In this document: in pieces, positions 19,946 through 39,956 of the stretch
How positions within the stretch are numbered: position 1 is the first letter of the stretch
How the letters are laid out: the number at the start of each line of letters is the position of its first letter
Assembly (NCBI GenBank): GCA_050175655.1
Contig: JBFXIT010000002.1
Span: forward strand, 1 to 39,956
DNA from: Leucobacter sp.
Lineage (GTDB): Bacteria; Actinomycetota; Actinomycetes; Actinomycetales; Microbacteriaceae
Reading direction: 5' to 3'
DNA length: 39,956 bases
The notes under the pieces: generated by a model
The model's database searches: none
The model's input: only the letters and a program-made list of their open reading frames with translations
Told to the model about the DNA's origin: nothing
Translations under genes and position numbers: made by a program

Positions 19946-22900
19946 TCAGCCCTCGGCGAGGGGCAGTTGCACGGTGAGCGGCCTCCCGTGCTCGACGAAG
20001 ATGCCGCGTCCCTCGGGGAACTCGTGCCGCTGCACCTTGGGGAACGGGGTCTTGAAGAGGGTGTCGCCGTCGAAGGTCTCGGGCCGCAGCGCGATGCCGT
20101 GGCGGCTGGCCTTCAGCTCGCCGATCAGCCCGTAACCGCTGCCGAGCTGCGCGATGTCGCCGTCGGCGATGAGCAGCTGGTCGCTGCGGTTGACCGCTTG
20201 GAACAGCTCCTTCAGTGCGCGATCCGCGTCGGTATCCGAATACTCGATCAGATTCTCGAGCACGATCAGCACCCGTGTGGTCTCGCTCTCGTCGGAGACC
20301 AGCTCGGTCAGATCCTTCGCGAGCGCGCGCACGTCTTCGATGCGGCTCGCTCGCCGCTTCCACGGCCGATAGCCCGCGAGCGCCGCCCGGCGACCGCCGA
20401 TGTGGTACATCTCGGTGCCGGAATCGAAGCGCTCCATTGCCCGCACGATGCCGCGCAGAGCGGTGCTCTTGCCGCTCAGCGGCGGGCCGGCGACGAGGAA
20501 GGTGCCGATGGGCTCGAAGGCGACGGGGCCGAGCGTGTGCTCGCCGATGCCGAGGGCGGGGGAGCCGCCGACGTGGTCGGGCAGATTCTGCTGCGGATAC
20601 GAGACGGGCAGCGCGCCGATCGTCTCGGCCACGGCGACTCCGTGCCTGCTGAAGCGCTCGCCGAGCGCGATGGCGGCCGCGTTCTGCTCGGCGACGTTCG
20701 GAGTGCCGCCGATCACCGCGATCTGGGTCTCGAGGCCGTCGACGATGCCCCTGCCGGGTGCGCTGCGCTCGCTCAGCACGTCGCGCGGCACGCCGAGGAT
20801 GCCGTACGAGTTCTCGTCGGAGAGCCGCAGGACCACCCGCTTGGTGATGTTCGCGCTCACTGCGGTGGGCACGGCGCCGTAGCGGTCGGCCGTTGCGACG
20901 ATGTGGACGCCGAGGGGGCGGCCCTCGCCGAGCACGCGCATGAACGTCGCGTAGGTCTCCACCCGGTTCGCTCCGCTCTCCCACTCCTGGCGGAAGGTGC
21001 CGAAGCCGTCGAGCAGCAGCAGCACGCACGGCTCGTCGTGGTCGCCGGTGATCTCGCGGTACTCGCCGAGGGTCGAGGCGTTCACCTCGCTGAAGCGCTG
21101 CGCGCGCGAGTCGAGCGTGTCTCTGAGCGTGCGGAACAGCCGCTGAATGCGTTCGACATCGTCGCCGGTCACGATCGTGCCGACGTGGGGCAGCGCCTCG
21201 AGCGAGCGCAGCGCACCCGTGCCGAAGTCGATGCCGTAGACGGTCGTCGCGCCGAGGGTGCGCCCGGCACCGGCCGCGATGGCGAGGGTGCGCAGCGTCA
21301 CCGTCTTGCCTGCGCCGCTCGTGCCGTAGACCAGCATGTGTCCCTCGCGGTCGGGTGCGAACGAGACGGTCTGCTGCAGCTGTTGCTCGGGCACGTCGGC
21401 GAGGCCGATCGGCAACTCGCCGGTGATGCTACCTGCGCTGCCCCCTGCGCTGCCCTCGGCGTCGGCACTGCTCTCGATCTGATCGAGTAGACCGAGTAGA
21501 TCGAGTAGATCGAGCAGGTCGACGGCGGTCGGCAGCTCATCGAGCCAGGGGCGCCGCGGAACCGGAATGCCCGCCTCCTGCGCCGCCAGCACGAAGTTGC
21601 GCACGATGCGCTCCTGGTCGTTGGGGCCCGTCTCGCCGGTCTCGGGGCCGCCGGCCGCAGCACCCGCACCCGCCGCGCCACTAGCACCACCCCCAGCACC
21701 CGCACCCTCGGCGTCGACCTCCGACTCCCAGGTGACCACGGTGCCGAAGCGCAGCTCGGCCACCGACACCTGCGCCGCATCCGGCCTGTCGGTGGTCCAG
21801 CCCCCGGCATAACCCGATTGGAACGGCACGAGCCGCCCCGGCCCGGTCTTCGCGATGGCGCGGCCGGGCAGCGAAGGATCGAAGCTCGCCGCGATCGGGT
21901 CTCCCACCACATCGCTCGAATCGGATTCGTCTGCCATGCGCAGCGCCACGCGCAAGTTGGTATTGGCACGCAGATTGTCTTTGATCACGCCGGCCGGCCG
22001 CTGGGTCGCCATGATCAGGTGGATGCCGAGCGAGCGGCCGCGCTGGGCGATGTCGACCACGCCGTCCACGAACTCGGGCACCTCGGTGGCGAGCGCGGCG
22101 AACTCGTCGATCACGAGCACCAGGGTGGGAGGTGCATCGGGATCCTGCCGCTTCTCGAGCTCGATGATGTCTTTCGCGTTCTTTCGGTTGAAGAGGTGCT
22201 CGCGGTGGTGCAGTTCGGCGCGCAGGCTGGTGAGTGCGCGGCGCACGAGGTGCGGGCTGAGGTCGGTGACGAGACCGACGCAGTGCGGCAGCTTCACGCA
22301 GTCGGCGAAGGCGGAGCCGCCCTTGTAGTCGACGAAGAGGAAGGTCACACGATCGGGGCTGTACTCGGCCGCGAGCCCCAGCACCCAGGCCTGCAAGAAC
22401 TCGGACTTGCCCGAGCCGGTGGTGCCTCCGACGAGCGCATGCGGCCCCTGTGTGCGGAGGTCGAGCGACATCGCGTCGGGGGATCGCTGGCCGACGAAGG
22501 CTTTGAGCGTGCCGGCGCGCTTCAGCCGTTCGCGGTGCGGCGAGTGGCGGTCGATGATCGAGTTGTTCTGCTGCCAGCGCTCGACTACCGTGCCCGGCTC
22601 TTCGGCGAGGTCGGTGCCGACGACCCGCAGCAGCGATACCTGCCGGGGGAGGTCGGAGGAATCGGGTGCGACCGAGCTCGAATCGACCACCGGTGCCAGG
22701 CGCCTGGCGAAGTACTCGGCGTAGTCTCGCGAGACGCCTTCGACGGCCACCGGGCGGCTCTGCTCGCCGAGTCGCACCCAGCCGATGCTCGCCTGCTCGA
22801 GACCGGCGGAGACGTCGATGAAGGTACGGCAGGCCGCGGGCAGCGCCTCGACGCTGGGGGCGACGCATATCGTGTAGATGCCCACATCGGGGCCGCGTTC

Positions 22901-24544
22901 GATCAGCTGGGTCAGCCGCGCGCGGTCGACGGGCGCATTGCTGCTCACGAACAGCACGAGCGAGACGTCGCGCGCCGCCTTGTGCTTGCCGCCGCGGGCC
23001 TCGTCGATGTACTTGCCGAGCTGCATCGAGCTGTCCCTCTCGGGCAGCGGCCCCAGGTGGGTGGGGCTGCCCGAGAGCCGTTCGAGGATCGTCTCTTCGA
23101 GCGCGTTCAGCAGCACGGTGCCGGCGGCCTGGCTGTCGGCGAGCGCGATGTCGGCGAAGTCGGATTGCGGGCTGGTGACGTGGGGCAGCCACCGCAGCCA
23201 CTCGAGTTCGGAGCTCCAGTCGGGGGCGAGGATCGCTGCGGTGACCACCTCGTTCGGCGCATGCAGGCCGAAGAGCTGCACCCCGAGCCCGCGCAGCGCG
23301 TCTGCCGCGAGCTCGGGGGGGCCAGCGATGCCGAGGGCGCCCGCGGCGGGCAGCAACTCGACCAGCGGCACGTCGTCGATGGTCTCGAAACGGTCGCGCA
23401 GCTCGTCGATCCGTTTCGCATATTTCACGATGCCGCGGCTCTCCTCGGAGCGTTGCAGGGTGTTGCGGCTCTTCGCGGTGCCCGATCCGAGGCGCAGCGA
23501 GAGGAAGTTCCAGTGCTCGGGCCTGCGCGTCCACAGCAGTGGCCCGAGCTTCACCGCCTGCTCGTAGATCTCGGCCGTCGGGGGCGCTTCGTGCCGTCGG
23601 CGCTCGCGTTCGAGCTCCTCCTCTTCGAGCAGCGTGTCCTCGAGTTCATTCATGCGCGATTCGAAGCTCTCGATCTCCTCGCGCAGCTTCTTGCCCTGCT
23701 GCGTGCGCTGGCCGATGAAGTTGCCGAGCATCATCAGCGGCGACATGACCACCATCAGCAGCGATGTGGCGCGGCCGGTAAGGGCGAAGAGCGAGAAGCC
23801 GAGGATGACGGGCGCCACGATCATCGGCCACGGGAACAGGCGCGGTTCGGTCTCGCTCGGGATCGCGGGGTGCTTGCGGTCCTCGCCCGTGTACCGCTGC
23901 TCGACCCGGGGCGAGCGATTGAACAGAAGCGAGCCGCCGCGCTCGAGCACTCGGTCCGCCGGTGTTTCGACGATGCCCTCGGCGAGGGGTGTGAACGAGA
24001 GATCGGTGCCGCCGATCGACACCACCTGCCCGGGGAGGATCTGCGCGCGCTGCACGTAGTCGCCGTCGATGACGATGCCGTTCGCCGAGTTGAGGTCGAC
24101 GATCTCGATGTGCGCTCCGATCTCGAGGCGCGCGTGCCGGCGCGAGACGAGCGGATCGTCGAGCCGGAGTTCGGCGGGCTCGCTGCGGCCGATCACGGTC
24201 GTGCCGCGGTGCACCGGCACCTTGAGCCCCGCCTGCGGGCCGGTGTGGATGCGCATGATCGCCCCGACCGCGTCGTTGTGGCGGTAGGCCTCGGCCGTGG
24301 CGTTGACCGTGGCGGCGTCGAAGCCCGAGCCGAGCGGGGCCTCGCCGAGGGGGGCAGTGGGGTCGAGCTGGTAGGAGTCGCCGCCGGGAGGGCGCACTTC
24401 GAGCGTGGGGTTCGGCAGCCGTGCCGCGCCTTCGCCCGCCTGCAGCGCGCGGGCGACATCCTCCACCTTCGCCGTCGCATCGGCGGTGATCAGCACGTCG
24501 ACGGGGGGCTGGGCCTGCCGGTGCAGGGCGAGCTTGATCCTCAT
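19946..24544 (-). CDS. FHA-containing, membrane-anchored FtsK/SpoIIIE multi-ATPase (EccC/EssC-like T7SS coupling protein)
   Basis: FHA motifs IGRS, VSRRHA, SANG; FNRSPR then two TM helices; three P-loops (GGTTGSGKS with VIDEF; GTSGAGKT; GPPLSGKS); QRGRSLGIHLIMATQRP. Adjacent to a WXG100 gene. Confidence 0.9.
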   Translation of the reverse strand: MRIKLALHRQAQPPVDVLITADATAKVEDVARALQAGEGAARLPNPTLEVRPPGGDSYQLDPTAPLGEAPLGSGFDAATVNATAEAYRHNDAVGAIMRIHTGPQAGLKVPVHRGTTVIGRSEPAELRLDDPLVSRRHARLEIGAHIEIVDLNSANGIVIDGDYVQRAQILPGQVVSIGGTDLSFTPLAEGIVETPADRVLERGGSLLFNRSPRVEQRYTGEDRKHPAIPSETEPRLFPWPMIVAPVILGFSLFALTGRATSLLMVVMSPLMMLGNFIGQRTQQGKKLREEIESFESRMNELEDTLLEEEELERERRRHEAPPTAEIYEQAVKLGPLLWTRRPEHWNFLSLRLGSGTAKSRNTLQRSEESRGIVKYAKRIDELRDRFETIDDVPLVELLPAAGALGIAGPPELAADALRGLGVQLFGLHAPNEVVTAAILAPDWSSELEWLRWLPHVTSPQSDFADIALADSQAAGTVLLNALEETILERLSGSPTHLGPLPERDSSMQLGKYIDEARGGKHKAARDVSLVLFVSSNAPVDRARLTQLIERGPDVGIYTICVAPSVEALPAACRTFIDVSAGLEQASIGWVRLGEQSRPVAVEGVSRDYAEYFARRLAPVVDSSSVAPDSSDLPRQVSLLRVVGTDLAEEPGTVVERWQQNNSIIDRHSPHRERLKRAGTLKAFVGQRSPDAMSLDLRTQGPHALVGGTTGSGKSEFLQAWVLGLAAEYSPDRVTFLFVDYKGGSAFADCVKLPHCVGLVTDLSPHLVRRALTSLRAELHHREHLFNRKNAKDIIELEKRQDPDAPPTLVLVIDEFAALATEVPEFVDGVVDIAQRGRSLGIHLIMATQRPAGVIKDNLRANTNLRVALRMADESDSSDVVGDPIAASFDPSLPGRAIAKTGPGRLVPFQSGYAGGWTTDRPDAAQVSVAELRFGTVVTWESEVDAEGAGAGGGASGAAGAGAAAGGPETGETGPNDQERIVRNFVLAAQEAGIPVPRRPWLDELPTAVDLLDLLDLLGLLDQIESSADAEGSAGGSAGSITGELPIGLADVPEQQLQQTVSFAPDREGHMLVYGTSGAGKTVTLRTLAIAAGAGRTLGATTVYGIDFGTGALRSLEALPHVGTIVTGDDVERIQRLFRTLRDTLDSRAQRFSEVNASTLGEYREITGDHDEPCVLLLLDGFGTFRQEWESGANRVETYATFMRVLGEGRPLGVHIVATADRYGAVPTAVSANITKRVVLRLSDENSYGILGVPRDVLSERSAPGRGIVDGLETQIAVIGGTPNVAEQNAAAIALGERFSRHGVAVAETIGALPVSYPQQNLPDHVGGSPALGIGEHTLGPVAFEPIGTFLVAGPPLSGKSTALRGIVRAMERFDSGTEMYHIGGRRAALAGYRPWKRRASRIEDVRALAKDLTELVSDESETTRVLIVLENLIEYSDTDADRALKELFQAVNRSDQLLIADGDIAQLGSGYGLIGELKASRHGIALRPETFDGDTLFKTPFPKVQRHEFPEGRGIFVEHGRPLTVQLPLAEG
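21481..21516 (+). repeat. 9-bp tandem repeat x4 (GATCGAGTA) within the FtsK-like gene, encoding LLD-LLD-LLG-LLD
   Basis: gatcgagta gaccgagta gatcgagta gatcgagca. Confidence 0.85.
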
Positions 24545-25242
24545 GCGCGCTGATCCTCTCTCTCACCGCTGAACGCTCTGCCGCCGATCACCGAGGCCGA
24601 GGATCGGCGGTTGTCGACTGCGAGCCGGGGCCCGACTCCGCTGCTCGACAGCACGGGGAGGCGCTCGGAGGTGTCGCGGAACTGCTCCGCGTAGTTCCGC
24701 CGCGCCTTGCGCAGTGCGTTCTCGTCGTTCGGGTCGAGGCCGCCGCGCACGTCGATCAGCCAGCAGCTCGCGGCGCGGTCGAGCACGCTGCGCCGCCGGC
24801 CGCTCACATCCCAGTAGCTCGAGGCGAACATCAGCACCGGGCCCGCCAACGGCACGATGTTGCTGAGCGAGAGCAGCAGCGCGCGCAGCACGATGCGCCA
24901 GAACCCCGGGGCTGCGAGGCCCGGCAGCGAGACGCTGCGCAGGCGCATCGCCGCCTTGCCGAGGGTCACCCCGCGTCGGCCGTGCAGGATCAGCTGCACC
25001 AGGCAGAACAGCGAACCCAGCACCTGCCCCGAGATGACGAGCACGAGCGGCCACAGCGTGAAGCCCGCGGTGAGGCCCAGCCAAGCGCCGACCGCGGCCG
25101 GGCTCACGAGGATCGCCCAGACGAGTGCGTCGATCATGAAGGCCGCGATGCGGGCACCTACCGGGGCGGCCTTGATGCCCAGCGCCTCGGCGATGATGTG
25201 GTCCGGAGCGCCCGGCTCGGTGGTCGGGACGGCGTCGATCAA
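24541..25242 (-). CDS. RDD-family membrane protein
   Basis: ARIAAFMIDAL, GVTLGKAAMRLR, RRSVLDRAASCWLID RDD motifs. TTG 25242 after GGGAG (25254 is an alternative). Stop overlaps the FtsK-like ATG (ATGA). Confidence 0.85.
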   Translation of the reverse strand: MIDAVPTTEPGAPDHIIAEALGIKAAPVGARIAAFMIDALVWAILVSPAAVGAWLGLTAGFTLWPLVLVISGQVLGSLFCLVQLILHGRRGVTLGKAAMRLRSVSLPGLAAPGFWRIVLRALLLSLSNIVPLAGPVLMFASSYWDVSGRRRSVLDRAASCWLIDVRGGLDPNDENALRKARRNYAEQFRDTSERLPVLSSSGVGPRLAVDNRRSSASVIGGRAFSGEREDQRA

Positions 25243-25414
25243 GAGGGCTCCCAACGGGTGCGGCGGGTGGAGGAGTTCCGACTCTCCATTCTGCCCTGCC
25301 CGGGCGACCCTTGGCGCGCTTTCAGCCAGCTTGATAGATTGGGCGGCGGGGTCGGATGGCCCTGTCGCTGTCGATATCGGATCGTCAGGTCGTGAACCGG
25401 GAGGTTAGTGAGTC

Positions 25415-25693
25415 GTGAGTCGTATTCTTTCTACCGAGGATGCCAAGTCGGCGATTCGTCAGATCCAGTCGATCATCAACGGCGGGCTCACCGATCAGAT
25501 CTCGGAGTTGGATTCGCAGGGTCGCATCCTCTCCGACCAGAACGTGTGGGACGGCCCGCTCGCCTCCACGTTCCGCAGCTCGACCTGGCCCGAGACGAAG
25601 GCCGCGCTCGACAAGGCGAAGACCGAGCTCGAAGAGCTGCGCGTGCAGCTCGACAAGATCGCCGAAGACATCTTCACCGCCGGCGGCGCCTGA
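25415..25693 (+). CDS. WXG100/ESAT-6-like protein
   Basis: 92 aa, two predicted amphipathic helices with a central W-D-G (NVWDGPLASTF); GGGAGG RBS; next to the FtsK-like ATPase. Confidence 0.8.
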   Translation: MSRILSTEDAKSAIRQIQSIINGGLTDQISELDSQGRILSDQNVWDGPLASTFRSSTWPETKAALDKAKTELEELRVQLDKIAEDIFTAGGA

Positions 25694-25802
25694 ACCGCAC
25701 GGTCGCGAGGTTCGGCTGCCGCGTGATGCCGGTCGCCGAACCTGTTCGTTCGGCGTGCGCCGGGCGCGGTGAACGTTTCGGAAGAGTGGAGTGAGTGGGA
25801 GC

Positions 25803-28800
25803 ATGGCCGACGTCTATGGAATGGCCGATGTCGATTTCGATTTCGGCGCTGCCGAGACCCTCGCCCAGGTGGCGAGCGACTCCGCGACGTCGGTCAGGGG
25901 CCTGGAGCGGGAGCGCGCGGCGCGTGCCGTGACGGCGCAGGCGGACTTCCGCGGCTACTTCGCTCTGCTCTTCGCCGACAACGTTGCGACCGGCTCCACC
26001 GACGCCGCGAATCTCGCCACCTGCCTCGACCGCATTGCGAGTTACACGCGGGAGCTCATCACCGCTGCCGAAGAGGAGAACGTTCGCAGGCAGCAGGCCC
26101 GCGAGTGGGCCGAGCGGCAACGGCAGCGCGAAGAGAACCTGCTCGTCGACATCTACTACAACCTCGCCTTCTGGGAGTCGAAGGATCCGCCGCCCACGAC
26201 TCGCAGCGATCCTCCCAGCTATTCGGCCGGCGACGTCAACCTGGCGAGGCATGACCTGCCCGCTCGCGGCGGCGGCAGCGGCGGCGGGGTGTCCTCCGCG
26301 AACCCCTCGCACTTGCGCGCGTTCAGCCTGCCGCCGAGCTTCTACGGCAGTTTCGAGAGCGACGGCCCGGCGAGGCTGCGGCGGGCCTGGAACGACTTCG
26401 TCTCGGGGTGCAAGTGGGGCACGCTCGACGCGAGCGGCACTGTCGACGCCCTCGATCAGTGGGTCGAGGCGAACAAGGACGAGCGCAGCTGGGTGAACGC
26501 GGTCGCCGCGGCCTTCGAGGCCGCCGGCACTTCGGGCGGCACGGCGTCGCTCTCCGATGCATCGCTGCTCGAGGCGCTCGCGCAGGCCGGGCTCGATCCG
26601 GTGCGCGGCACGCTCGCGCTCGATCCGCCCGAGCTCTACGGCATCAACCCGACCACCGGCTACAGCAACGACCCGGTGAACACCGTGACGGGCAACTTCA
26701 TTGAGCCCGAGACCGATCTCGGTTTCGGCGGGGCGGCCGCTGCGCTGAGCCTGACCCGCATGTACAACTCGCAGAGCACCGCGCGCGGCCTGTTCGGCCT
26801 GGGGTGGACGAGCTCGCTCGAGACGCGGCTGCGGCTCGACGGCGCTCCGTGCCTCGTGCTGCCCGACGGCCGTGAGGTGCGCTTCGCGCGGTTGCCCGGC
26901 GAGGAGGCGGCGGCCGAGCCGGTGCGGGCCGAATCGGAGAACTTCTGGCTTGCCCGGGCGCACGGCTCGGGGCCCTGGCTGCCGGCCGAGACCGAGCTGC
27001 TGGTGAGCGACAACCGGGGCACGCGCTGGGCCTTCACGGCCGCGGGCGTGTGGGTCGCTGTGAGCTCCGGCGCGGGCACCACGGTCACCGCTCGTCGCGA
27101 TGCGGCGGGCCGTGTCGCGGAGCTGGTGCACGCGCGCGGCCGCAGCATCGAGATTCGCTACGACGGCGATCTGGTCGCGACGGCGCAGGGTTCGGACGGG
27201 CGCCGGGTCGACTACTCGTACGACGCCGGGGGGCGGCTCTGCGAGGCGCGCGACGCGGTCGGGGCGCGCGTGTACCGCTGGAACGACGACGATCTCATCG
27301 TCGCGGTGACCAGCGCGGCGGGTGTGGTCGAGGCCGAGAACGTCTATGACGCCGAGGGCCGCGTGGTGCGGCAGATCACCGAGTTCGGCCGCGAGGTGCG
27401 CTTTGCCTACCTGCCGGGTCGCGTGACCGCGGTCTCCGACCTCGACGGTACGAACAGCAACACCTGGATCGCGGATCGCCGTGGGCGCTTGATCGGCGTG
27501 ATCGACGGCGACGACAACCGTGTGTCGATGGCCTACGACCGGTACGGCAACCGCACGAAGGTGGTGGATCGCGACGGCTCGGTGACCGAGCAGGTCTACG
27601 ATGAGCGCGGTCGTCTGACGCAGACCAGGCTGCCGGACGGCGGCGAGGTCACCACGGCCTACGACGAGTTCGACCGCGTGGTGACGGTGGTCGCGAGCAG
27701 CGGCGGCGTGGTCGAGTACGGCTACGCGAGCGAAGAGGATCGCAATCCGTCGGTCATTCGGGACGCCGCGGGCGGCGAGACCGCGCTGACCTGGCGGAAC
27801 GGCCTGTTGACCGAGGTGGTCGACCCGGTCGGGGTGCGTCTGCGGATGGCCTACGATGAGCACGGCGAGCTGGTCTCTACCACCAACGGCGCCGGCGATG
27901 TGGCGCGGCTGGAGCGCGACGGGATGGGCCGCGTATCGGTGGCGAGTTCGCCTTCGGGGCATCGCACCGAGTTCGGCTATGACGAGGCCACCGGGCTGCT
28001 CGCCGAGCGTGTCGATGCCGACGGCGCCCGGTGGCGTTTCGAGCACACGGCGGCGGGCAGACTCGCTGCGGTGACCGATCCTCTCGGCGGTCGCACCGTG
28101 CTCGAATACGGCCTGCACGGCGAGCTGGTGAAGACGGTGGACCCGCTGGGCCGGGAGGTGTCGCGCGAGTTCGACCTGATGGGCAATGTGTCGAAGCTGC
28201 ATCTGCCCGATGGCGCGTCTTGGATCTACGAGCACGACGCGCTCTCCCGAGTGCGCGGCGTTACCGACCCCGGGGGCAGTCGCTGGTCTGCCGACTACGA
28301 CGAGCTGGGCAGGCTCAGCGAGCGAGTCTCGCCCGCGGGCGTTGCCGAGTCGTTCGAGTATTCCCGGGCGAAGAACCGTGCCACCGCGGCCGTCGCCGGG
28401 AGCGAGTTCGGCCTGCAGCTCGATGAGTTCGGGCGTCCCCGTTCGTCGCAGTCCTTCGACGGCGGCGAGAGCGTGGTCAGCTATGACGCGGCGGGCAGAA
28501 TCGTCGAGGTGGTCGACGCCGAGGGAGGCCTGACGACCATCGGCTATGACCTCGCGGGTCGCATCGTGCAGGTGCGCAGCGCAGCCGGGCGGGTGACGGG
28601 CTACGAGTACGACGCATGCGGCCGGCTCGCGCGCTCGATCGACCCGGCCGGCGCCGTGACGCAGTACGAGTACGACGCCGACTCGCTGGTCTCCGCGGTG
28701 GTATCGCCCTCCGGGGAGACGACTCGCTTCGCATACGATCCGATGGGCCGACTGGTGCGCCGCGAGGCTCCCGGTGAGGGTGTTGCGCGCATCTCCTACG

Positions 28801-31774: not shown

Positions 31775-31872
31775 GGTCCCGAGCGGGAGCGGGAGAATCT
31801 TGAGTCGGCATCGAGGAAAGGACGCGCCTCGCTGGACGACGTAGGTAACTGTGCAGGAATGAGGATCCGATC

Positions 31873-32303: not shown

Positions 32304-32535
32304 GAGTCGAGCGTGCTCACTACGGTCCGGGGAGTGGCTCAGAGACCGGATCAAGGCGCGTTTCGGGTGAATTCTCGCAAAAACATCGGATGAATAGTAC
32401 TTTCGGCACCTCAGCGGCCCTGCGCGCGTGTTGGGAATGTCTATGATGGAAGTGTGATTCTGTTCAGCGACGTAGCCATGCGAAGCGCTCCGATATTCTT
32501 CGGTGCCCCGCACGGCCCCGACCCTGCACAGATGC

Positions 32536-33645
32536 ATGGCTAGCCCCGCGCCGCCCCCTCCGCCGCAGATCACCGGTTTCGGTTACGTCCGACCGCTGGG
32601 GTCCGGCGGATTCGCGCATGTCTACCAGTACGAGCAGGACATGCCCCGCCGTGTCGTCGCGGTGAAGGTGCTTGAGACGCCGCTGAGCGGCCCTCGCGAC
32701 CGCAGCGACTTCGAATCCGAGGCCGACACGATGGCCCGTCTCTCGAGCCATCCCTCGATCGTCTCCATCTACTCGGCGGGTGTCGCGGCCGACGGGCGAC
32801 CGTACATTGCCATGGAGTACTGCCCCGATTCGATGCGCACCCGCACGCGCAACAACCCGGCCCCGCTGCAGGTGGTGCTCGACGCGGGCGTACGCCTCGC
32901 GGGCGCGCTCGAGACCGCGCACCGTTCGGGCGTGCTGCACCGCGACATCAAGCCGTCGAACGTGCTCGTGTCGACGACCGGTCGCCCCACGCTCACCGAC
33001 TTCGGCATCTCGTCGCTCCAGGGCCTCAGCCCGTCGGGCGATAAGGCGCAGGCCATGTCGATTCCGTGGGCCGCGCCCGAGGTCGTCTCGGGGGCCACGA
33101 GCGGCACGGTCGCCAGCGAGATCTGGGCGCTCGGCGCCACCATCTACACCTTCGCCGCGGGCCGTTCGCCGTTCGAGCACGCGGATCGCCAGCAGAACAC
33201 GCAGTCGAAGATGATCGATCGCATCTCCCGCGCGCGCTACACCCCGGTGCCCGGGGCGCAGGGCTACGGCCCCTTCGACCAGGCGATGGCCCGTTCGATG
33301 GCGCTGCGGGCCGACCAGCGCTTCGCGTCGATGCGGGAGTTCGGCGAGACGCTGCAGCAGCTGCAGCGCAGCTACGGCTTCGATGTCACCCCGTTCGACC
33401 TGGTCGAGGCCGGATGGGTCGCCCCCGCGCCCGATGCGCAGGCGTCGCGCGGGCCCGTCGTCACCAGCGTTCGCTCGAGCACCCGCGCCCAGCAGCGGGC
33501 GGAGCTGGCGGTGGATCGCGACGGCCTCGTCGTCGAGGAGCCCCGCGGGGCCTCGCCGTTGCGTGCGGCCCTGATCGGTGCGGGCATCGCCGTGGTGGTG
33601 ATCGGAGGCCTCGCGGCAGCCGCATTCGGGTTGGGGTGGATATGA
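32536..33645 (+). CDS. Hanks-type Ser/Thr protein kinase with C-terminal TM anchor
   Basis: GSGGFAHVY, VAVK, HRDIKPSN, TDFG, WAAPE motifs; ends in a hydrophobic helix (AALIGAGIAVVVIGGLAAAAFGLGWI). Confidence 0.93.
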   Translation: MASPAPPPPPQITGFGYVRPLGSGGFAHVYQYEQDMPRRVVAVKVLETPLSGPRDRSDFESEADTMARLSSHPSIVSIYSAGVAADGRPYIAMEYCPDSMRTRTRNNPAPLQVVLDAGVRLAGALETAHRSGVLHRDIKPSNVLVSTTGRPTLTDFGISSLQGLSPSGDKAQAMSIPWAAPEVVSGATSGTVASEIWALGATIYTFAAGRSPFEHADRQQNTQSKMIDRISRARYTPVPGAQGYGPFDQAMARSMALRADQRFASMREFGETLQQLQRSYGFDVTPFDLVEAGWVAPAPDAQASRGPVVTSVRSSTRAQQRAELAVDRDGLVVEEPRGASPLRAALIGAGIAVVVIGGLAAAAFGLGWI

Positions 33646-36600
33646 ACGCCGCGAAACGCGCGACGCGCAGGTCGCCAGCAGCGGCATCCCGGCCGGGAAG
33701 GCGCTGGGCGAAGTGGGTCGCAGGCGGCGCGGTCGCCGCGCTGGTGGTGACGGTCGCCGTGGTCGTGAGCGGCTTCGACTCACGGGAGACGCCGCGAGAG
33801 GATCCCTCGGTGTGGGTCGTCAGGACCGCGGGGCAGTACGCCCGGGTCAACACGGAGACGGCCGAGATCGACACGGTCCGCCAGATCGAGGGCCCGAGCG
33901 GGGTCGTGCAGTCGGGCAGCTTCGGGTTGTTGCTGAGCCAGGGAGACGGCCGGGCCTGGACGATCGACCAGGCCGCACCGCAGGACATCCGCGATGGCGG
34001 CGGCGCTGCGGCCGATGGCGCCGAGGCTGATGGCGCCGAGATTGATGGCGCCGAGGTCGAAGATGCTGAGGCAGACGGCGCCGAGGCGGCCGCTGCCGAG
34101 GATCCGAGCGCCGACGCTGTGGAAGAGGCGGCGACGGCTGATGACGATACGACGGGCCCGTCGGCGATCCGCACCCCCGGGGGCACCCGCCAGGTGATCG
34201 CGGCGGGCGACGCGGTGCTCTTCTTCACGGAGGCCGGGGAGACCCACCTCGCGGGGATCGACCATCGCGCCGGGGCGTCGACGCTCGGCGCACCCGTGCT
34301 GCTCGATCCCTTCGCAGAGGAGAACGCCGAGGTCGAGAACGCCGAGGATCGCAAGGAGTACCGCGCCGACGCTGCTGCGATCGACTCGAGCGGCCTGGTC
34401 GCGCTCTACTCTAGCTCCGAGCGTTCGGTGCGCTGGTACGACATCGGCGCCGGCGAGTTCAAGCGGGCCACGAGCGACGTGCCGGAGGGTGCTCCCGGCG
34501 AGGGCGCGCAGCTCGCCATCGTCGGCGGCCGCTGGGTGCTGCTCGACACCGAGACCGGCACACTCTGGCGCGACGGCAGGAGTGCCGTCGAGATCGATCT
34601 CGTGGGCACCGCGCTGCTGCAGGGCTCCGGTGCCGATGCCGAAGCCGTGCTGGTCGCCGACGAGGCCGGCCTGTGGTCGGTCGACGGCAGTGCCGAGCGA
34701 GTCGCCGATGCGGAGGGCGTCCCGGCACGGCCCGAGCAGGTCGGCGACGACGTCGTCGCCGCTTGGATCGGATCGACCTCGGCCGCGATGTGGACCGCAT
34801 CCGGCGGTGAGACCGTTCTCGATCTCGACGGGGCGGTCGAAGACACCGCCGATCCTTCCCCTGTGATCCGCACGAGCGGGGGCCGTGGCCTCGTCACCGA
34901 CATGCGCTCGGGCATGATGTGGACGGTGCCCGACGGGCGCCTCATCCCGGTGGAGCAGTGGACGCTGATCGACCCGCCGAAGCAGGAGACGGGTACGGTC
35001 ATCACACAAGACGTCACCGAGCAGGAGCCCCCCGTCGCCGTCGACGACTCCTTCGGTGTTCGGGCGGGCGAACCGGCCCTGCTGCCGGTGCTGCTGAACG
35101 ACTACGATCCCAACCGATCAGACGTGCTGACCGTGGTTCTCGAGGGGCTTGGCGAAGGGCTCTCGGCCGACTTCGGCACCGTCGAGGCGCTCTCCGACGG
35201 CCAGGGACTCATGGTGCAGCCGGGCGCCGCCGCCACCGGCGCGACCAGTTTCAGCTACCGCATCACCGATGGTGTGAACGTTTCGCCCCCGGCGACCGTC
35301 ACGCTCACCGTCGTGCCCGAATCGGTGAACACGGCACCGCAGTGGTGCCCCGTCGACGGCTGCCAGCGCAGTTGGCCGAGCCCGGAGCTGGCTCCCGGCG
35401 GCACGCTGGTGCTGCCGATCCTCGAGGGCTGGGTCGATCCCGAGGGCGACCCGATGATGCTGGCCGAGGCGACCCCGGTGAATGCGGAGGATCCGGTTCG
35501 TGCGCTCGTCACCGCCGACGGCCGCCTCGCCGTGCGCCACACCGACTCGAATGCTTCCGACGGCGACATCGGCGTGCGCGTGCGCATCGTCGATTCGCGG
35601 GGAGAGGCGACCGAGCGCGAACTGCGGATCCGGGTGCGCCCCGGCGCCGCTGCGGAGTTCGCGCCTATCGCCACGACCGTGAAGATCGGCGAGCCCGTCG
35701 TGCTGCGCCCGCTGGAGCGGGTGTCTGGAGGCTCGGGATCCTATGCGCTCGTCGACGCGGTCGTGCAGAGCGGCAACGCGAGTGCGACGGTGAACCAGGG
35801 TGCCGGAACGATCGAGTTCGCCGCAGACACCGCCGGCGGCTCGCTCGTCACGGTGACCGTGCGCGACACGATCACCGAGCTCGAGATCTCCGGAGTGGTG
35901 CGCGTGACCGCGGTGGAGAAGAGGGCCGCGCTCGCGGTGCCGCCGCTGCGCGCCTTCCTGCGCCCGCTCAGCGACACCACCATCGAGGTGCTCGATGCGA
36001 TTCCGGGCGCGAACAGCCGCTCCCTCGTCGTGCAGTCGGCCGCCGCCGTCGACGGCGAGCTGCGGGTCGACGTGATCGAGCACGCCCGTCTGCGGCTCTC
36101 CGGCAGCACGGCCGACGGGCAGCCCGGCCGGATCGGTTCGGCCGACGTGGTGATCGCAGAGGGCGAGCTCACCGCGACCGGTCGTGTCACGGTGTTCCAG
36201 GTGCCCGAGACGAGCGTCGGCGGTGCGATCGCCGTCGCCGACTCGGTGACGGTGCGCGCCGGCTCCATCGTCGACATCCCGGTGCTCGACAACGACGTCG
36301 CCCCTCCCGGCGAGCGCCTGGTGCTGCACCCCGAGGTCGGCGCGCCTGGAGCCGAGGGCGAACTCGCCTTCGCCTCGGGCAGCCGCGTGCGTTATCTGGC
36401 CCCTGATGAGCCGGGCAGCTACGTGCTGAGTTACACCACCTACGGGGTGTCGAGCCCCGAGAACAGCGATGTGGGCCAGGTGCGGGTCACGGTGCTGCCC
36501 ACCGGCACGAACCGTGACCCTCAACCCCCGAACGTCACCGTGCGCCTCGCGCCCGGAGAGAGCGTCACCTCGTCGATTCCCGTCTCGCGGGCGGATCCCG

Positions 36601-39600
36601 ACGGCGACCGGGTGCGGCTGGTCACCGTCGGGGCGCCGAGCGATCCGCAACTCTCGGTCTCGATCCTGCCGCGTTCCGGCACCGTTCAGGTCGCGGCATC
36701 GACCAGCGCGGCGCGCGGCACCCACTACGTCGATTACACTGTGCGCGATGACTTCGGCGGCGAGGCGACCGGCCGCCTCCGCATCATCGTCACCGACCCC
36801 GACCCGGGCGGAGGAGCCCCGGTCGTCTACAGCGACTACGTGCGCATCGCGCGCGGTACAGCGGAGCCCGCGGTCGTGCGACCCCTCGACAACGACATCG
36901 ACCCGTCGGGCGGCACGCTCACGATCGTCGAGGTCGTGCCCAACGTGCCCGGCGGCGAGGAGTCGCCGCTCTACGCAGACCTCGCGGCCCGGCTCGATAC
37001 GAGCGCACTGGAGCAGGGCGTCGTCAGCATCGCGGGCGGCGACGAACTGGGGGCATTCTCATACCGCTATACCGTTCGTTCCAGCAAGACGAAGAGCACG
37101 GCCGACGGCCTGATCGTCGTGCAGGTGAGCGACCGGATCGGCCGGCAGGCTCCGACCGTGCAAGACACGGTGCTGTCGGTGCGCGACCGCGCCGAGCTGA
37201 AGAGTTCGGGCGTCGACGTGGTCACCGGCCGCGTGAGGTGGGCCACCGGCGATATCTCGAAGCTCGAGCTCTCGCTGTGGAGCGGGGCCGAGAACAGCTA
37301 CCAGGTGAGCGGGTCGAGCATCGTCGGCAGTTACCGTGCCGAGGGCGATCTCGTGCCCTTCAAGCTCACCGGCCCCGACGCGAGCGGCGAGCAGGTCGAG
37401 ACCTACGGCTTCTTGATCGTGCCGCCGCTCGACGAGATGCGACTCGGGCTCAAGCCGGGGGCCGGAGCGCTCGCCGTCGATGAGAACAAGACCGTCGACG
37501 CCGATCTGCGGGAGCTGCTCGACCTCGGGCCGGGCGACCAGATCGAGCTCGCCGACGGCCCCTTCGGCGTGCAGCGCTCGCAGGCTTCGTGCGTCGCGAC
37601 CGGGCAGACGACTATCCGGTACAGTGCGGGCAAGGAAGCCCCGTGGGGCGACTCGTGCACCGTGCAGGTGCGACTGACCGAGCAGAACACCTACACTTCC
37701 CTGCCCATCCCGATCGAGATCAAGCCCGACTCGCCGGTCGTCATGCTGAACCCGCTGACGCGCACGATCGCTCCGGGCGAGGGCGAGACGATCGACCTCA
37801 CCGACATGGTCGACTGGCAGGGCGGCCGCGAGGGCAAGATCGACCAGTTGCGCTGGCAGACGGGCGCAGGATCGGCACCCTTCGAGGTGACCTCCTCGGG
37901 CTCGCAGGTGCAGGTGCAGGTGCGAGCCGACGGCGCGCCGGGCTCGCAGCAGGTGCTCGCGGTGAGCGTCTCGGGCGAGGGGGAGAGCCAGGCGGTGCTC
38001 ACTCTGCGAGTGGGGGCCGCGGCGCAGGACGCGCCCCGCGGCGGCACCGTGTCGCTGCAGTGCACCGTCGACTCGAACTGCACGGCTCCGCTCGTCGGAG
38101 TCGGCGGGGAATACGATCCGTTCGCCGGTAAGAGCGGCGGCGGCCTGCACCTGGTCTCCGTCGATTCGGCCGGATGCCAGTTCGGCGACATGCAGGCCTC
38201 CGGTGACAGCGTGGTGGTCTCCTGGCCGAAGCAGCGCGGCCCGGGAGGCAGATGCACGGCGAGTTTCACGGTGCGCGACGCGCAGGATCGCACGGGCACC
38301 GGGCAGATCGAGTTCGATGCCCAGGGCGTGCCGCCGAAGCCCGACGAGATCGTTCTGGTCTCGGCCGAGGCGAACAGTGTGACGCTCCAGGTCAAGCTCG
38401 GCGAGGCCGCGAGTGCGCACCCGAGCGTGACGGGCGTCGTCGTGAACATGGACGGCGGAGGGTCGGTCGGATCCTGCACGCCGTCGGGCGACACCTATCG
38501 CTGCGTCGTCGGGTCGCTCAATGTCGGAGAATCGCACCGCTTCGTGGCGCGCGCGGTCAACGGTGTCGGCGAATCCGACCCCACCGAGCCCGTCGACGCC
38601 TGGGCCTTTCGCCAGCCCGAGCTGAGTCTCGGCCAGATCGATGCGGTGCAGCGGTCGGCCGAGTCCACCGCCACCGGAACGGTGCGCGTGACGGTCAACG
38701 GCACCGACCCCACCGTCAAGCACTTCAAGGTCGTTGTCGGCGGGATCTCGGGAGTGATCGACGGAGCCAGCGGCCATATCGACATCGCCGGTGTGGCCGT
38801 GGGGTCCGCCGCGTACACGGTCACCCCGGTGAGCCAATTCGCCCCTCCCAGCACCGGCGGCTCCAGCGAGGGCTCGACGGTCGGCGACAGCCTCACCGTC
38901 GGAGGCCTTCCCACCGTGACGATCGCCGCGACCTCGGCTCAGGGCAGCAGCACGGCGGACGTGACGGTGACGCTCGACGCGAACGGCGGTGGTGATCCCG
39001 AGGTCGGCTCATCGGTGGGCGCCGCTGCCTGCGCACCTGCTGAGGGCGGCACGAGCTTCACCTTCAGCCACGCGGGATCGGCCCACACTGAGATGACGGT
39101 GAACGGCTGCGGCAGCAACGAGTGGGGTGCGGCGGCCCCCGTGAGTACCGCGGTGCTCGTCGGCGACCGCCCGTCGCCGCCGACCGTCACCGAGGGGTGG
39201 AGCGTCGCGACGAACTACTCCATCGCAGGTTCTTCTGCGGTCTACGGTCTGGTCAGCGGGCCCACGGTGGCGGCGGACTACACCCTGCAGTTCACGGTCA
39301 ACGGCGCGGTCTCGGGCGCATTCCCCGGTGGCCTCGACCCGAACGTCTCGACGACGGCGAGCGTCGTGCAGTGCGTCGGCTCCGTCTGCTCCGATCCCGT
39401 CGCCATCACCGGCAACGCGCCCACGACCGTCGAGGTGGTGCTCCCCGCCTGCATCGCAGAGGGCGCTACACCCGCCGAGCTGCTGCCCTACGTGTCAGCC
39501 GCCGCGCGATCCTATGCCGCGCCCTCGTACGTCGGCGGTGTGTTCACCGTCGGCTGGGCCACCCCCTTCAACAACCTGCAGCAGCTCGATCAGGCGATCG

Positions 39601-39614
39601 CGCCGTGCCCCTAG
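33642..39614 (+). CDS. Giant (~1990 aa) surface protein with Ig/cadherin-like repeats and a fibronectin type III domain
   Basis: ATG overlaps the kinase stop (ATGA). Basic N-terminus plus TM/signal. Repeated PVAVDD..VRAG..PVLxND, DPxGD and FSYRITDG/YTVRDD motifs. FN3-like PPKP...HRFVARAVNGVGES. Cys pairs in the distal part. Confidence 0.85.
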   Translation: MNAAKRATRRSPAAASRPGRRWAKWVAGGAVAALVVTVAVVVSGFDSRETPREDPSVWVVRTAGQYARVNTETAEIDTVRQIEGPSGVVQSGSFGLLLSQGDGRAWTIDQAAPQDIRDGGGAAADGAEADGAEIDGAEVEDAEADGAEAAAAEDPSADAVEEAATADDDTTGPSAIRTPGGTRQVIAAGDAVLFFTEAGETHLAGIDHRAGASTLGAPVLLDPFAEENAEVENAEDRKEYRADAAAIDSSGLVALYSSSERSVRWYDIGAGEFKRATSDVPEGAPGEGAQLAIVGGRWVLLDTETGTLWRDGRSAVEIDLVGTALLQGSGADAEAVLVADEAGLWSVDGSAERVADAEGVPARPEQVGDDVVAAWIGSTSAAMWTASGGETVLDLDGAVEDTADPSPVIRTSGGRGLVTDMRSGMMWTVPDGRLIPVEQWTLIDPPKQETGTVITQDVTEQEPPVAVDDSFGVRAGEPALLPVLLNDYDPNRSDVLTVVLEGLGEGLSADFGTVEALSDGQGLMVQPGAAATGATSFSYRITDGVNVSPPATVTLTVVPESVNTAPQWCPVDGCQRSWPSPELAPGGTLVLPILEGWVDPEGDPMMLAEATPVNAEDPVRALVTADGRLAVRHTDSNASDGDIGVRVRIVDSRGEATERELRIRVRPGAAAEFAPIATTVKIGEPVVLRPLERVSGGSGSYALVDAVVQSGNASATVNQGAGTIEFAADTAGGSLVTVTVRDTITELEISGVVRVTAVEKRAALAVPPLRAFLRPLSDTTIEVLDAIPGANSRSLVVQSAAAVDGELRVDVIEHARLRLSGSTADGQPGRIGSADVVIAEGELTATGRVTVFQVPETSVGGAIAVADSVTVRAGSIVDIPVLDNDVAPPGERLVLHPEVGAPGAEGELAFASGSRVRYLAPDEPGSYVLSYTTYGVSSPENSDVGQVRVTVLPTGTNRDPQPPNVTVRLAPGESVTSSIPVSRADPDGDRVRLVTVGAPSDPQLSVSILPRSGTVQVAASTSAARGTHYVDYTVRDDFGGEATGRLRIIVTDPDPGGGAPVVYSDYVRIARGTAEPAVVRPLDNDIDPSGGTLTIVEVVPNVPGGEESPLYADLAARLDTSALEQGVVSIAGGDELGAFSYRYTVRSSKTKSTADGLIVVQVSDRIGRQAPTVQDTVLSVRDRAELKSSGVDVVTGRVRWATGDISKLELSLWSGAENSYQVSGSSIVGSYRAEGDLVPFKLTGPDASGEQVETYGFLIVPPLDEMRLGLKPGAGALAVDENKTVDADLRELLDLGPGDQIELADGPFGVQRSQASCVATGQTTIRYSAGKEAPWGDSCTVQVRLTEQNTYTSLPIPIEIKPDSPVVMLNPLTRTIAPGEGETIDLTDMVDWQGGREGKIDQLRWQTGAGSAPFEVTSSGSQVQVQVRADGAPGSQQVLAVSVSGEGESQAVLTLRVGAAAQDAPRGGTVSLQCTVDSNCTAPLVGVGGEYDPFAGKSGGGLHLVSVDSAGCQFGDMQASGDSVVVSWPKQRGPGGRCTASFTVRDAQDRTGTGQIEFDAQGVPPKPDEIVLVSAEANSVTLQVKLGEAASAHPSVTGVVVNMDGGGSVGSCTPSGDTYRCVVGSLNVGESHRFVARAVNGVGESDPTEPVDAWAFRQPELSLGQIDAVQRSAESTATGTVRVTVNGTDPTVKHFKVVVGGISGVIDGASGHIDIAGVAVGSAAYTVTPVSQFAPPSTGGSSEGSTVGDSLTVGGLPTVTIAATSAQGSSTADVTVTLDANGGGDPEVGSSVGAAACAPAEGGTSFTFSHAGSAHTEMTVNGCGSNEWGAAAPVSTAVLVGDRPSPPTVTEGWSVATNYSIAGSSAVYGLVSGPTVAADYTLQFTVNGAVSGAFPGGLDPNVSTTASVVQCVGSVCSDPVAITGNAPTTVEVVLPACIAEGATPAELLPYVSAAARSYAAPSYVGGVFTVGWATPFNNLQQLDQAIAPCP
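34011..34086 (+). repeat. Degenerate 15-bp tandem repeat x5 encoding (A/I)DGAE units
   Basis: gccgatggcgccgag gctgatggcgccgag attgatggcgccgag gtcgaagatgctgag gcagacggcgccgag. Confidence 0.8.
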
Positions 39615-39657
39615 CCGGGCTCCGAACCCGACCCCTCCCCAGAGAAAGAAGCGCCAC

Positions 39658-39956
39658 ATGACGACCGCACCCGCGCAGCCCAGCCCGCTCTCAGAAGACC
39701 GCGCGCGTTGGGCGGGAGAGTCGATCCGCACCACGGCCGATGCCATGGAGCAGGTGATCCACGGCAAGCGCCGCGTGATCGAGCTGGTGCTCGCGACGCA
39801 GATCGCCGGCGGCCACGTGCTGCTTGAAGACGTGCCCGGCACGGGCAAGACTGCGCTGGCGCGCACGCTCGCGCAAGTGATGCAGGGCAGCGCGTCGCGC
39901 ATCCAGTTCACGCCCGACCTGCTGCCGGGCGACGTCACCGGCATCACCGTCTACGA
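39658..39956 (+). CDS. MoxR-family AAA+ ATPase (partial, runs off window end)
   Basis: ATG 39658 after AGAAAGAAG; own translation gives GHVLLEDVPGTGKTALARTLA...SRIQFTPDLLPGDVTG, the MoxR signature. Not in the supplied ORF track because no stop is in the window. Confidence 0.93.
   Translation, partial: MTTAPAQPSPLSEDRARWAGESIRTTADAMEQVIHGKRRVIELVLATQIAGGHVLLEDVPGTGKTALARTLAQVMQGSASRIQFTPDLLPGDVTGITVY

What the first reader, a model, noticed from the sequence alone, without database searches (positions are those of the whole stretch)
19946..39956. Candidate non-canonical type VII secretion/toxin system built with a kinase-Ig/FN3-MoxR module
Seen: one contiguous locus holds an FHA-TM-triple-ATPase FtsK protein, an RDD protein, a WXG100 protein, an Rhs toxin with coupled immunity candidate, then a kinase, a giant Ig/FN3 protein and a MoxR ATPase. 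Established: an FtsK-like ATPase plus WXG100 is the minimal T7SS signature. T7SSa normally adds EccB/EccD/MycP and T7SSb adds EsaA/EssA/EssB/EsaB; none of these is recognisable here. Kinase-FN3-MoxR-DUF58-transglutaminase operons (PFNA type in bifidobacteria) are known but usually discussed separately from secretion. Inference: this operon may supply the missing machinery, with an active kinase in the role of pseudokinase EssB, the giant surface protein in the role of EsaA, and MoxR/DUF58 as assembly chaperones, giving a phosphorylation-controlled, contact-dependent toxin delivery system. I cannot confirm whether this arrangement is already classified as a T7SS subtype.
Basis: partly seen in the sequence, partly recalled or inferred. 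Interest (0 to 1): 0.9.

Follow-up and report, generated by a model that had tools for sequence, protein, structure and literature searches.

The report
Surface sensor beside minimal secretion motor
This actinobacterial locus puts a stripped-down type VII secretion motor and a likely toxin–immunity pair directly upstream of a surface-sensing kinase operon; that operon and its link to type VII secretion were published in 2026 as the Esr pathway, so this is a variant that likely works as a signal-controlled toxin exporter, not a new kind of machine.

Summary
The operon continues on an overlapping contig with DUF58 and transglutaminase-like genes. Linkage is real: 46 of 52 genomes with this ATPase clade carry the giant Ig protein, 30 within 25 kb, in 11 families.

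It is not new. The kinase–Ig–MoxR–DUF58–TGase operon is the Esr pathway (Wang et al., bioRxiv Sept 2026; the bifidobacterial PFNA operon). There, 40% of copies adjoin esx genes, FHA–EccC fusions are noted, and losing the Ig protein blocks effector export but not EsxA/B export. That favours a regulator, not missing machinery. The kinase-for-EssB and Ig-for-EsaA idea was proposed in 2024 for T7SSd, whose Ig protein is unrelated here.

In this genus the operon normally follows rplA (38 of 40 genomes). The 12.8-kb secretion/toxin cassette is an insertion with a Microbacterium-like ATPase.

Residual novelty: the ATPase clade mostly lacks EccB (4 of 52 have it), carries a predicted fused ubiquitin-like domain also seen on T7SSd-layout ATPases, and EsrD lacks the catalytic cysteine (0 of 38). 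The scan found this system before on other DNA.

The parts
19946..24544 (-). Type VII secretion ATPase (TsxC/EccC-like), 1532 aa: predicted ubiquitin-like domain (aa 1-84), FHA (116-178), two membrane helices (236-277), three P-loop domains; equivalent to the 'EsrG-EccC fusion' of the Esr preprint (inferred)
   Evidence: Pfam/NCBIfam; motifs; AF2 model pLDDT 92.8; fold match; trees
24293..24544 (-). N-terminal predicted beta-grasp (ubiquitin/EsaB-YukD-like) domain of the ATPase
   Evidence: Strand-strand-helix-strand order in model; VIA-align Z 9.3, rmsd 2.3, 78 aligned to chain 9eeb_E 424-504 (that this is cofactor E's ubiquitin-like domain is recalled); profile hits to ubiquitin-fold chains E 1.2e-4 and 6.5e-4; hhalign to four EsaB/YukD E 0.003, probability only 10%
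24541..25254 (-). RDD membrane protein, 237 aa, coupled to the ATPase start; orthologue of RDD+FHA (EsrG-type) proteins but lacking the linker and FHA
   Evidence: Pfam RDD E 1.8e-10; 46% identity over 209 aa to a 449-aa Microbacterium orthologue that ends in an FHA-like segment; RDD+FHA listed as EsrG in Table S3
25415..25693 (+). WXG100-like protein, 92 aa; likely co-secretion partner of the Rhs protein
   Evidence: WXG100 E 7.5e-4, TIGR03930 E 3.7e-4, both below cut-off; all 3 other copies found (2 of 200 genomes) sit directly before a homologous Rhs gene and 4-35 kb from an FHA-ATPase
25806..31316 (+). Rhs protein, 1836 aa: probably helical N-terminus, DUF6531, RHS repeats, about 310-aa Gly/Ala-rich C-terminal part with two hydrophobic helices and no family match; candidate antibacterial effector
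   Evidence: last 516 nt 59.5% GC against 70.8% for the core
31313..31774 (+). Candidate immunity protein, 153 aa, three hydrophobic helices
   Evidence: 4-nt overlap with the Rhs stop; 52.6% GC; only an under-the-bar structural lead to SdpI/DUF1648 clusters
32536..33645 (+). EsrE/Pkb2-type Ser/Thr kinase, 369 aa, C-terminal membrane helix, no outside domain
   Evidence: Pkinase E 2.4e-37; GxGxF, VAVK, HRDIKPSN, DFG, APE all present; same position as EsrE (378 aa) in Table S3
33642..39614 (+). EsrA/FN3-type giant surface protein, 1990 aa, one N-terminal hydrophobic segment, Ig/cadherin-like repeats, no C-terminal membrane helix
   Evidence: Big_9 E 7.6e-26; hydropathy; homologues in 98 of 200 order genomes and 40 of 40 genus genomes
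39658..39956 (+). EsrB MoxR AAA+ ATPase, cut by the contig end; continues on contig C138 with EsrC (DUF58) and EsrD (transglutaminase-like, catalytic Cys replaced by Asp)
19700..32500 (.). Inserted cassette (ATPase, RDD, WXG, Rhs, immunity) between rplA and esrE; ends approximate
   Evidence: rplA-esrA gap is 3.5 kb or less in 38 of 40 genus genomes, 14.0 kb here; blastn to two relatives matches up to 19632 and again from 32519-32551

Best explanation
The locus joins an Esr-type surface-sensing operon (kinase, giant Ig protein, MoxR, DUF58, transglutaminase-like protein) to an inserted minimal type VII secretion cassette, and likely works as a signal-gated exporter of a WXG100 protein and an Rhs toxin. 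Shown here: the genes, their conserved linkage, the intact kinase and FHA motifs, the insertion and the Microbacterium-like ATPase. Shown elsewhere (Schaalia, with a canonical EccB/EccD system): the Ig protein is needed for threonine phosphorylation of an FHA protein and for export of a subset of substrates. Inferred: the Ig protein detects a cell on the surface; MoxR, DUF58 and the catalytically dead transglutaminase-like protein assemble or anchor it; the kinase phosphorylates a threonine that the ATPase's own FHA domain reads; the fused ubiquitin-like domain stands in for EsaB or the ubiquitin-like part of EccD; the ATPase then exports the WXG100 protein with the Rhs protein, whose C-terminal part likely damages membranes and is neutralised by the small membrane protein behind it. 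The Esr genes are best read as a regulator of the motor, not as its channel.
For: Gene order and sizes match Esr entries in Table S3 of PMC13622651, including a Leucobacter entry directly after rplA. Preprint: 40% of 3502 Esr pathways adjoin esx genes, EsrG-EccC fusions are noted, and the esrA2 deletion keeps EsxA/B export but loses AesA/B. Own survey: Ig protein in 46 of 52 genomes with the core ATPase clade against 52 of 148 without; within-family permutation mean 37.5, 0 of 20000 reached 46; 30 of 46 within 25 kb, 29 upstream and co-oriented, 11 families; in three families the only Ig-positive genome is the one with this ATPase, adjacent. Co-directional Ig-MoxR-DUF58-TGase-RDD/PP2C/kinase/FHA-ATPase-WXG runs in many loci. 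WXG-type genes beside the ATPase in 44 of 47 named loci with at least 1 kb downstream. FHA residues G119-R120, S-x-x-H137 and N-G conserved (their role is from established FHA knowledge). The WXG-Rhs pair recurs only near FHA-ATPases (3 of 3 copies).
Against: No experiment on this ATPase clade: the Schaalia system has EccB, EccD and S8 proteases. In this genus the ATPase lies between rplA and esrA in only 1 of 40 other genomes (frameshifted, a different subclade), so this adjacency could be incidental. Of 39 named loci with at least 7 kb upstream, 19 have Esr genes and 17 have rpoC instead. The window's RDD protein has lost its FHA. A second ATPase paralogue on C9 and a second Ig-MoxR-DUF58 operon on C171 make partner assignment uncertain. 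The Rhs C-terminus has no family match. What forms the membrane channel without EccB/EccD is unexplained.
Confidence: 0.7

Rival explanations
1. One reading: in this EccB/EccD-free clade the Esr proteins are structural parts of the secretion machine, with the kinase as EssB, the Ig protein as the EsaA-like conduit and the multi-helix, catalytically dead EsrD or the RDD protein as the EccD-like membrane partner.
For: EccB matched in only 4 of 52 core-clade genomes, never at the ATPase locus. EsrD lacks the catalytic Cys in 38 of 38, which fits a scaffold role. RDD-labelled genes lie in 51 of 54 named ATPase loci. Garrett et al. propose the same roles for T7SSd TsdD/TsdI.
Against: The esrA2 deletion keeps EsxA/B export in Schaalia. 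The Ig protein is common without this ATPase (52 of 148; 12 of 14 in one family with none) and sits beside EccB loci in G144, G222, G172. Related ubiquitin-FHA ATPases occur with no Ig match in the genome (G025, G034, G065). Six core-clade genomes lack the giant Ig, and G097 also had no EsrD match. The Ig protein has no C-terminal membrane helix, unlike TsdI.
Confidence: 0.15
2. In this genome the adjacency is incidental: a horizontally acquired ATPase-RDD plus WXG-Rhs-immunity cassette landed between rplA and esrE and works constitutively, or with the genome's other kinases, while the Esr operon does its own signalling.
For: Insertion into a gap that is empty in 38 of 40 genus genomes. The ATPase nests among Microbacterium sequences, and grouping it with own-genus copies is rejected (AU p 1e-71). 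Divergent orientation and loss of the RDD FHA domain. Other kinases and FHA genes exist in the genome.
Against: The closest relatives of this ATPase are Esr-adjacent in Microbacterium (L009, L013, L030). A different ATPase subclade occupies the same site in G002. Linkage recurs in 11 families.
Confidence: 0.12
3. The ATPase is a DNA translocase or conjugation coupling protein rather than a protein-secretion motor.
For: It carries FtsK/SpoIIIE domains and falls below the EssC and EccC cut-offs.
Against: EssC/EccC models score 312-519 bits against 50 for DNA translocase FtsK. A separate 980-aa FtsK exists on C27. WXG-type genes flank the ATPase in 44 of 47 loci.
Confidence: 0.03

Closest known systems
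Esr (epibiont sensing and response) pathway linked to Esx; Wang, Colautti ... Mougous, bioRxiv 2026-09-09, PMC13622651 (read: abstract, introduction, results, discussion, bioinformatic methods, figure legends, parts of supplementary tables 1 and 3)
   Same: EsrE kinase, EsrA Ig protein, EsrB MoxR, EsrC DUF58, EsrD transglutaminase-like in the same order and sizes; same rplA site in a listed Leucobacter; adjacency to esx genes; FHA fused to the ATPase is noted there.
   Different: The tested Schaalia system has EccB, EccD and S8 proteases; none was found here. The main text has no occurrence of EccB, EccD, ubiquitin or catalytic, so the EccB-free state, the ubiquitin-like head and the missing EsrD cysteine are not discussed there. 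The candidate effector here is an Rhs protein, not AesA/B. EsrF and a free EsrG were not seen (contig ends).
T7SSd (Garrett, Higginson and Palmer 2024, PMC11217815; read: abstract, methods, results part 1, T7SSd/e section, discussion, passages; supplement not readable)
   Same: Actinobacterial, FHA-bearing ATPase, WXG100, active Ser/Thr kinase, large Ig protein, no free ubiquitin-like gene, Rhs substrate with immunity gene in O. uli.
   Different: A T7SSd-layout locus (G130: WXG-kinase-147 aa-1798 aa-ATPase) has an ATPase only 32% identical, in a separate subclade. Its 1798-aa protein has a C-terminal helix and no BLAST match to the window's Ig protein. It has no MoxR/DUF58/TGase of its own, and the same genome holds a separate Esr operon. 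No TsdH here.
PFNA operon of bifidobacteria (review PMC8430577; read: abstract and passages)
   Same: pkb2-fn3-aaa-atp-duf58-tgm in the same order; listed as Esr in the preprint's Table S3.
   Different: Read there as host-cytokine sensing; no mention of FtsK, WXG or secretion; no adjacent ATPase of this clade.
T7SSa (ESX) and T7SSb (Ess)
   Same: Triple P-loop membrane ATPase plus WXG100 protein; Rhs substrates are known for both.
   Different: No EccB, EccD, mycosin, EssB or YukD match in the genome; the ATPase branches apart from both; its FHA keeps the phosphothreonine motif that EssC lacks.

Membership tests
Esr pathway | EsrA: large surface protein with Ig repeats | tested here: met
   1990 aa, Big_9 E 7.6e-26, N-terminal hydrophobic segment
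Esr pathway | EsrA N-terminal beta-propeller | not tested
Esr pathway | EsrB MoxR, EsrC DUF58/vWA, EsrD transglutaminase-like in order after esrA | tested here: met
   Window end plus overlapping contig C138
Esr pathway | EsrE active Ser/Thr kinase | tested here: met
   All catalytic motifs present; activity itself not measured
Esr pathway | EsrF phosphatase and EsrG FHA protein | tested here: inconclusive
   C138 ends inside esrD; relatives G011 and G231 carry a PP2C gene downstream; an FHA is fused to the ATPase; the RDD protein lacks its FHA
Esr pathway | Response to epibiont contact by threonine phosphorylation | not testable with these tools
   Needs co-culture and phosphoproteomics
Type VII secretion (any subtype) | Membrane-bound EccC/EssC-type ATPase | tested here: met
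   Two helices, three Walker A motifs, EssC model E 2.6e-155 though below cut-off
Type VII secretion (any subtype) | WXG100 protein | tested here: met
   92 aa, central W-D-G, two weak family matches below cut-off
T7SSa | EccB, EccD, mycosin | tested here: not met
   None at the locus; not found in the 78%-complete genome; EccB in 4 of 52 near-complete genomes with the clade
T7SSb | EssB pseudokinase, free EsaB/YukD, EssC clade | tested here: not met
   tree. EsaA and EssA were not searched
T7SSd | TsdI: Ig protein with signal peptide and C-terminal membrane helix | tested here: not met
   No C-terminal helix; no BLAST match at E<=0.01 to the 1798-aa protein of the T7SSd-layout locus
T7SSd | TsdH single-helix protein; TsdD kinase with large C-terminal outside domain | tested here: not met
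   No such gene at the locus; the kinase ends 13 aa after its helix
T7SSd | ATPase in the TsdC clade | tested here: inconclusive
   Separate subclades inside one actinobacterial FHA-ATPase clade. The anchor was chosen by gene layout, not from the paper's accession list, which could not be read, and its FHA motif looks degenerate
Transglutaminase (EsrD as an active enzyme) | Catalytic Cys-His-Asp | tested here: not met
   Cys column holds D 32, S 3, E 2, Q 1 of 38; His kept in 6 of 38. Register from alignment to TgpA and TG2; the Cys277 numbering of TG2 is recalled

The most novel reading that the evidence does not exclude
A large actinobacterial ATPase clade forms an unnamed, minimal type VII subtype that needs no EccB, EccD, mycosin, EssB or EsaA: the ubiquitin-like partner is fused to the motor (which would also explain the 'missing' TsxB of T7SSd), its FHA domain is gated directly by the Esr kinase, and the cysteine-less EsrD or the RDD protein serves as the membrane partner. 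The cassette moves between genera and docks at resident Esr operons.
Probability: 0.25. Interest if true: 0.7.

Novelty: new variant of a known kind. Interest (0 to 1): 0.33.

Why it matters
The main claim is already in print, so the locus itself is one more example. What remains useful is threefold. (1) The Esr-linked ATPases of this clade mostly lack EccB, so they pose a clean test of the smallest working type VII machine in harmless, culturable soil bacteria. (2) A fused ubiquitin-like head would answer the stated puzzle that T7SSd has no ubiquitin-like component. (3) EsrD lacks the catalytic cysteine, which challenges the preprint's idea that it cross-links EsrA to the surface.

Tried and rejected
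- Single-sequence fold of the ATPase head failed (pLDDT 35); the alignment-based fold worked.
- Foldseek listed only FHA chains; the ubiquitin-like match appeared only at rank 50 of the wide search, so that domain was not searched on its own.
- Complex prediction of the WXG protein with the Rhs N-terminus gave no answer (score 0.02); it is evidence neither way.
- A profile of the ATPase heads scored the left-out T7SSd-layout head only at E 6.4. The homology rests on profile-profile comparison (96.9%, E 1.4e-10; one G130 row is in the partner alignment) and weak YukD/SUMO-like Pfam hits in 5 of 9. That alignment against four YukD gave only 1%, and its PDB search was dominated by designed armadillo repeats.
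- The Atlas did not answer for the Rhs C-terminus, so that part was checked only against Pfam and NCBIfam.
- Promoter and terminator scans were at chance level.
- The RNA run laid (X15) holds short pieces only and cannot show transcription; small-share runs were ignored.
- Literature searches with no further prior art: T7SS+Micrococcales/Microbacterium/WXG100/FHA (0 papers); T7SSd/TsdC/T7SSk since 2024 (only Garrett among 20 listed of 112); EssC+ubiquitin-like+FHA+Actinobacteria (2 listings on Bacillota systems, not read); Esr terms (only the preprint).
- Rejected: contig chimera; T7SSd membership; DNA translocase.
Full report
Observation. The window is the whole contig C2 of a 78%-complete genome. 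They form three units: RDD and ATPase on the minus strand, WXG-Rhs-immunity on the plus strand, and after a 760-nt gap kinase-Ig-MoxR. Contig C138 overlaps the window end by 127 identical bases and continues with MoxR, DUF58 and a transglutaminase-like gene. The genome has a second ATPase paralogue (C9, 36% identical) and a second Ig-MoxR-DUF58 operon (C171). EccB, EccD, mycosin, EssB and YukD were not found, with positive controls in each search; the genome is incomplete. Contigs of two other studies bridge the rplA-ATPase and ATPase-kinase junctions, so a chimera is unlikely. Fourteen runs in 13 studies hold 94% or more of the sampled words; the three not flagged as possible sources are activated sludge. 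The genus is unnamed by the tools; Leucobacter is inferred from gene order matching a table entry.

Linkage. I searched one draw of 200 near-complete genomes of the order with the ATPase, a five-sequence Ig profile and EccB. ATPase scores had a gap between 872 and 523 bits. I set the core clade at the gap after seeing it, which left out three split high-identity hits (G216, G056, G212). Only two candidates per genome were scored. The Ig protein is in 46 of 52 core-clade genomes and 52 of the other 148. A within-family permutation gave a mean of 37.5 and never reached 46 in 20,000 rounds; kin within families are still not independent. Thirty of the 46 lie within 25 kb, 29 upstream and co-oriented, in 11 families. 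Two of the six without the giant Ig have a short Ig-like gene with MoxR and TGase beside the ATPase. EccB matched in 4 of 52, never at the ATPase locus. Against exclusivity: the Ig operon is common without this ATPase and sits beside EccB loci in G144, G222 and G172. Among 54 named Microbacterium/Agromyces-type loci, 39 had 7 kb upstream: 19 showed Esr genes and 17 showed rpoC.

This genome's arrangement. In 38 of 40 genus genomes esrA starts within 3.5 kb of rplA. One (G002) has a frameshifted ATPase of another subclade in the gap, and one has the genes on different contigs. The genus-typical ATPase lies near nusA-infB in the five loci read. The window's ATPase nests among Microbacterium sequences with 99% support, with an outgroup of EccC/EssC. 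Holding it with own-genus copies is rejected (AU p 1e-71; 37 of 67 rows used; I named the group after seeing the first tree). So the 12.8-kb cassette is best read as an acquisition inserted upstream of a resident operon. The WXG family is rare (2 of 200 genomes, 3 copies). Each copy directly precedes a homologous Rhs gene near an FHA-ATPase, twice in the same divergent layout as here.

The first 84 residues of the ATPase fold, in an alignment-based model (pLDDT 92.8), as a beta-grasp. They match a tubulin-cofactor chain at Z 9.3, rmsd 2.3 over 78 residues, ubiquitin-fold chains by profile (E 1.2e-4), and YukD weakly. A profile of this head finds it in most of the actinobacterial FHA-ATPases tested and in none of the EccC/EssC anchors; its next-best hits among 969 targets were a YukD (E 0.01) and a 451-aa protein beside eccB, probably EccD (E 0.09). 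The heads of nine ATPases homologous to the T7SSd-layout G130 ATPase match it by profile-profile comparison (96.9%), with weaker support from Pfam and none from a direct YukD comparison. The FHA keeps G-R, S-x-x-H and N-G. The RDD protein stops where its 400-470-aa orthologues go on to an FHA. EsrD has no cysteine at the catalytic column in 38 of 38 sequences.

Prior art. Wang et al. (PMC13622651) define Esr: EsrA Ig sensor, MoxR, vWA/DUF58, transglutaminase, kinase, phosphatase, FHA output. They report 40% of 3502 pathways next to esx genes and numerous EsrG-EccC fusions. In Schaalia, eccC loss lets Saccharibacteria overgrow, EsrA1 is needed for EsrG1 threonine phosphorylation, and esrA2 loss removes AesA/B but not EsxA/B export. 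Their tested locus has EccB, EccD and S8 proteases. Table S3 was cut at about 4 million characters and the part held had no 'EccC' entry; the figures and supplementary PDF were not visible, so their fusions may or may not include this exact clade. Garrett et al. (PMC11217815) define T7SSd with an active kinase and an Ig protein proposed to act like EsaA, no MoxR/DUF58/TGase, and no ubiquitin-like gene; their supplement could not be read. A T7SSd-layout locus was found in G130 beside a separate Esr operon, with an unrelated Ig protein. The PFNA review (PMC8430577) describes the same five-gene core without secretion.

Mechanism. Best reading (0.70): Esr is a sensor-kinase module that gates a minimal ATPase through its FHA domain, for export of the WXG100 protein and the Rhs effector. 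Gene content, linkage and motifs are shown; signalling is carried over from a different Esx subtype; gating, substrate identity and toxicity are inferred. The structural reading (0.15) stays open because nothing known replaces EccB/EccD. Incidental adjacency in this genome (0.12) is possible given the insertion. Whether the sensed threat is an epibiont is untested; that Saccharibacteria are common in activated sludge is recalled, not from a call.

Verdict. Real, conserved and already described as a system; a new variant in ATPase type and effector. Seven earlier scan notes on other genomes reached similar readings; they are not independent support. I had found the preprint and the ubiquitin-like head before seeing them; the wording 'pseudo-transglutaminase' in one note preceded my test. 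Interest 0.33.

Noticed in passing
G000 C9:15144-24121 (L114): Second ubiquitin-FHA ATPase (about 1604 aa) upstream of nusA-infB, preceded by a WXG-like gene, a hydrolase-like 685-aa candidate effector, two lipoprotein-like genes and yiaA; the genus-typical cassette, unlinked to Esr.
   Followed up: partly
G000 C171: Second Ig-MoxR-DUF58-TGase operon in this genome; the genus search found one Ig locus in each of the 40 other genomes.
   Followed up: partly
window 17800-18303: A yiaA-like membrane gene between nusG and rplK; a paralogue lies directly beside the C9 ATPase and beside the ATPase in G006 and G017.
   Followed up: no
window 24541-25254: The RDD protein aligns with its orthologue up to a Gly-Gly motif and then ends in a tail resembling the orthologue's last residues, as if linker and FHA were deleted in frame.
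   Followed up: partly
window 31775-32535: Low-GC (59%) 760-nt spacer with short ORF remnants between the immunity candidate and the kinase; possibly a decayed gene.
   Followed up: no
L075-L077 (G130) and L174-L184: T7SSd-layout locus in a small-genome family that otherwise carries PFNA/Esr; ATPase homologues in 11 of 121 genomes of that family; their N-termini are homologous to the predicted ubiquitin-like head, while the FHA motif looks degenerate.
   Followed up: partly
L093-L094 (G094), L080-L081 (G182), L135-L136 (G356): A further arrangement: ATPase followed by, or facing, a shorter 840-1240-aa Ig-like gene, MoxR, DUF58 and TGase, mostly with a convergent kinase; suggests repeated pairing of FHA-ATPases with MoxR triads.
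   Followed up: partly
L001-L053: In Microbacterium and Agromyces the ATPase cassette often lies between rpoC and rpsL, followed by two WXG-type genes, a roughly 450-aa candidate effector and several 200-aa candidate immunity genes.
   Followed up: partly
L073-L074 (G034): A related ubiquitin-FHA ATPase and WXG gene next to a Tad-pilus-like gene run (by eye), with no EsrA match in the genome.
   Followed up: no
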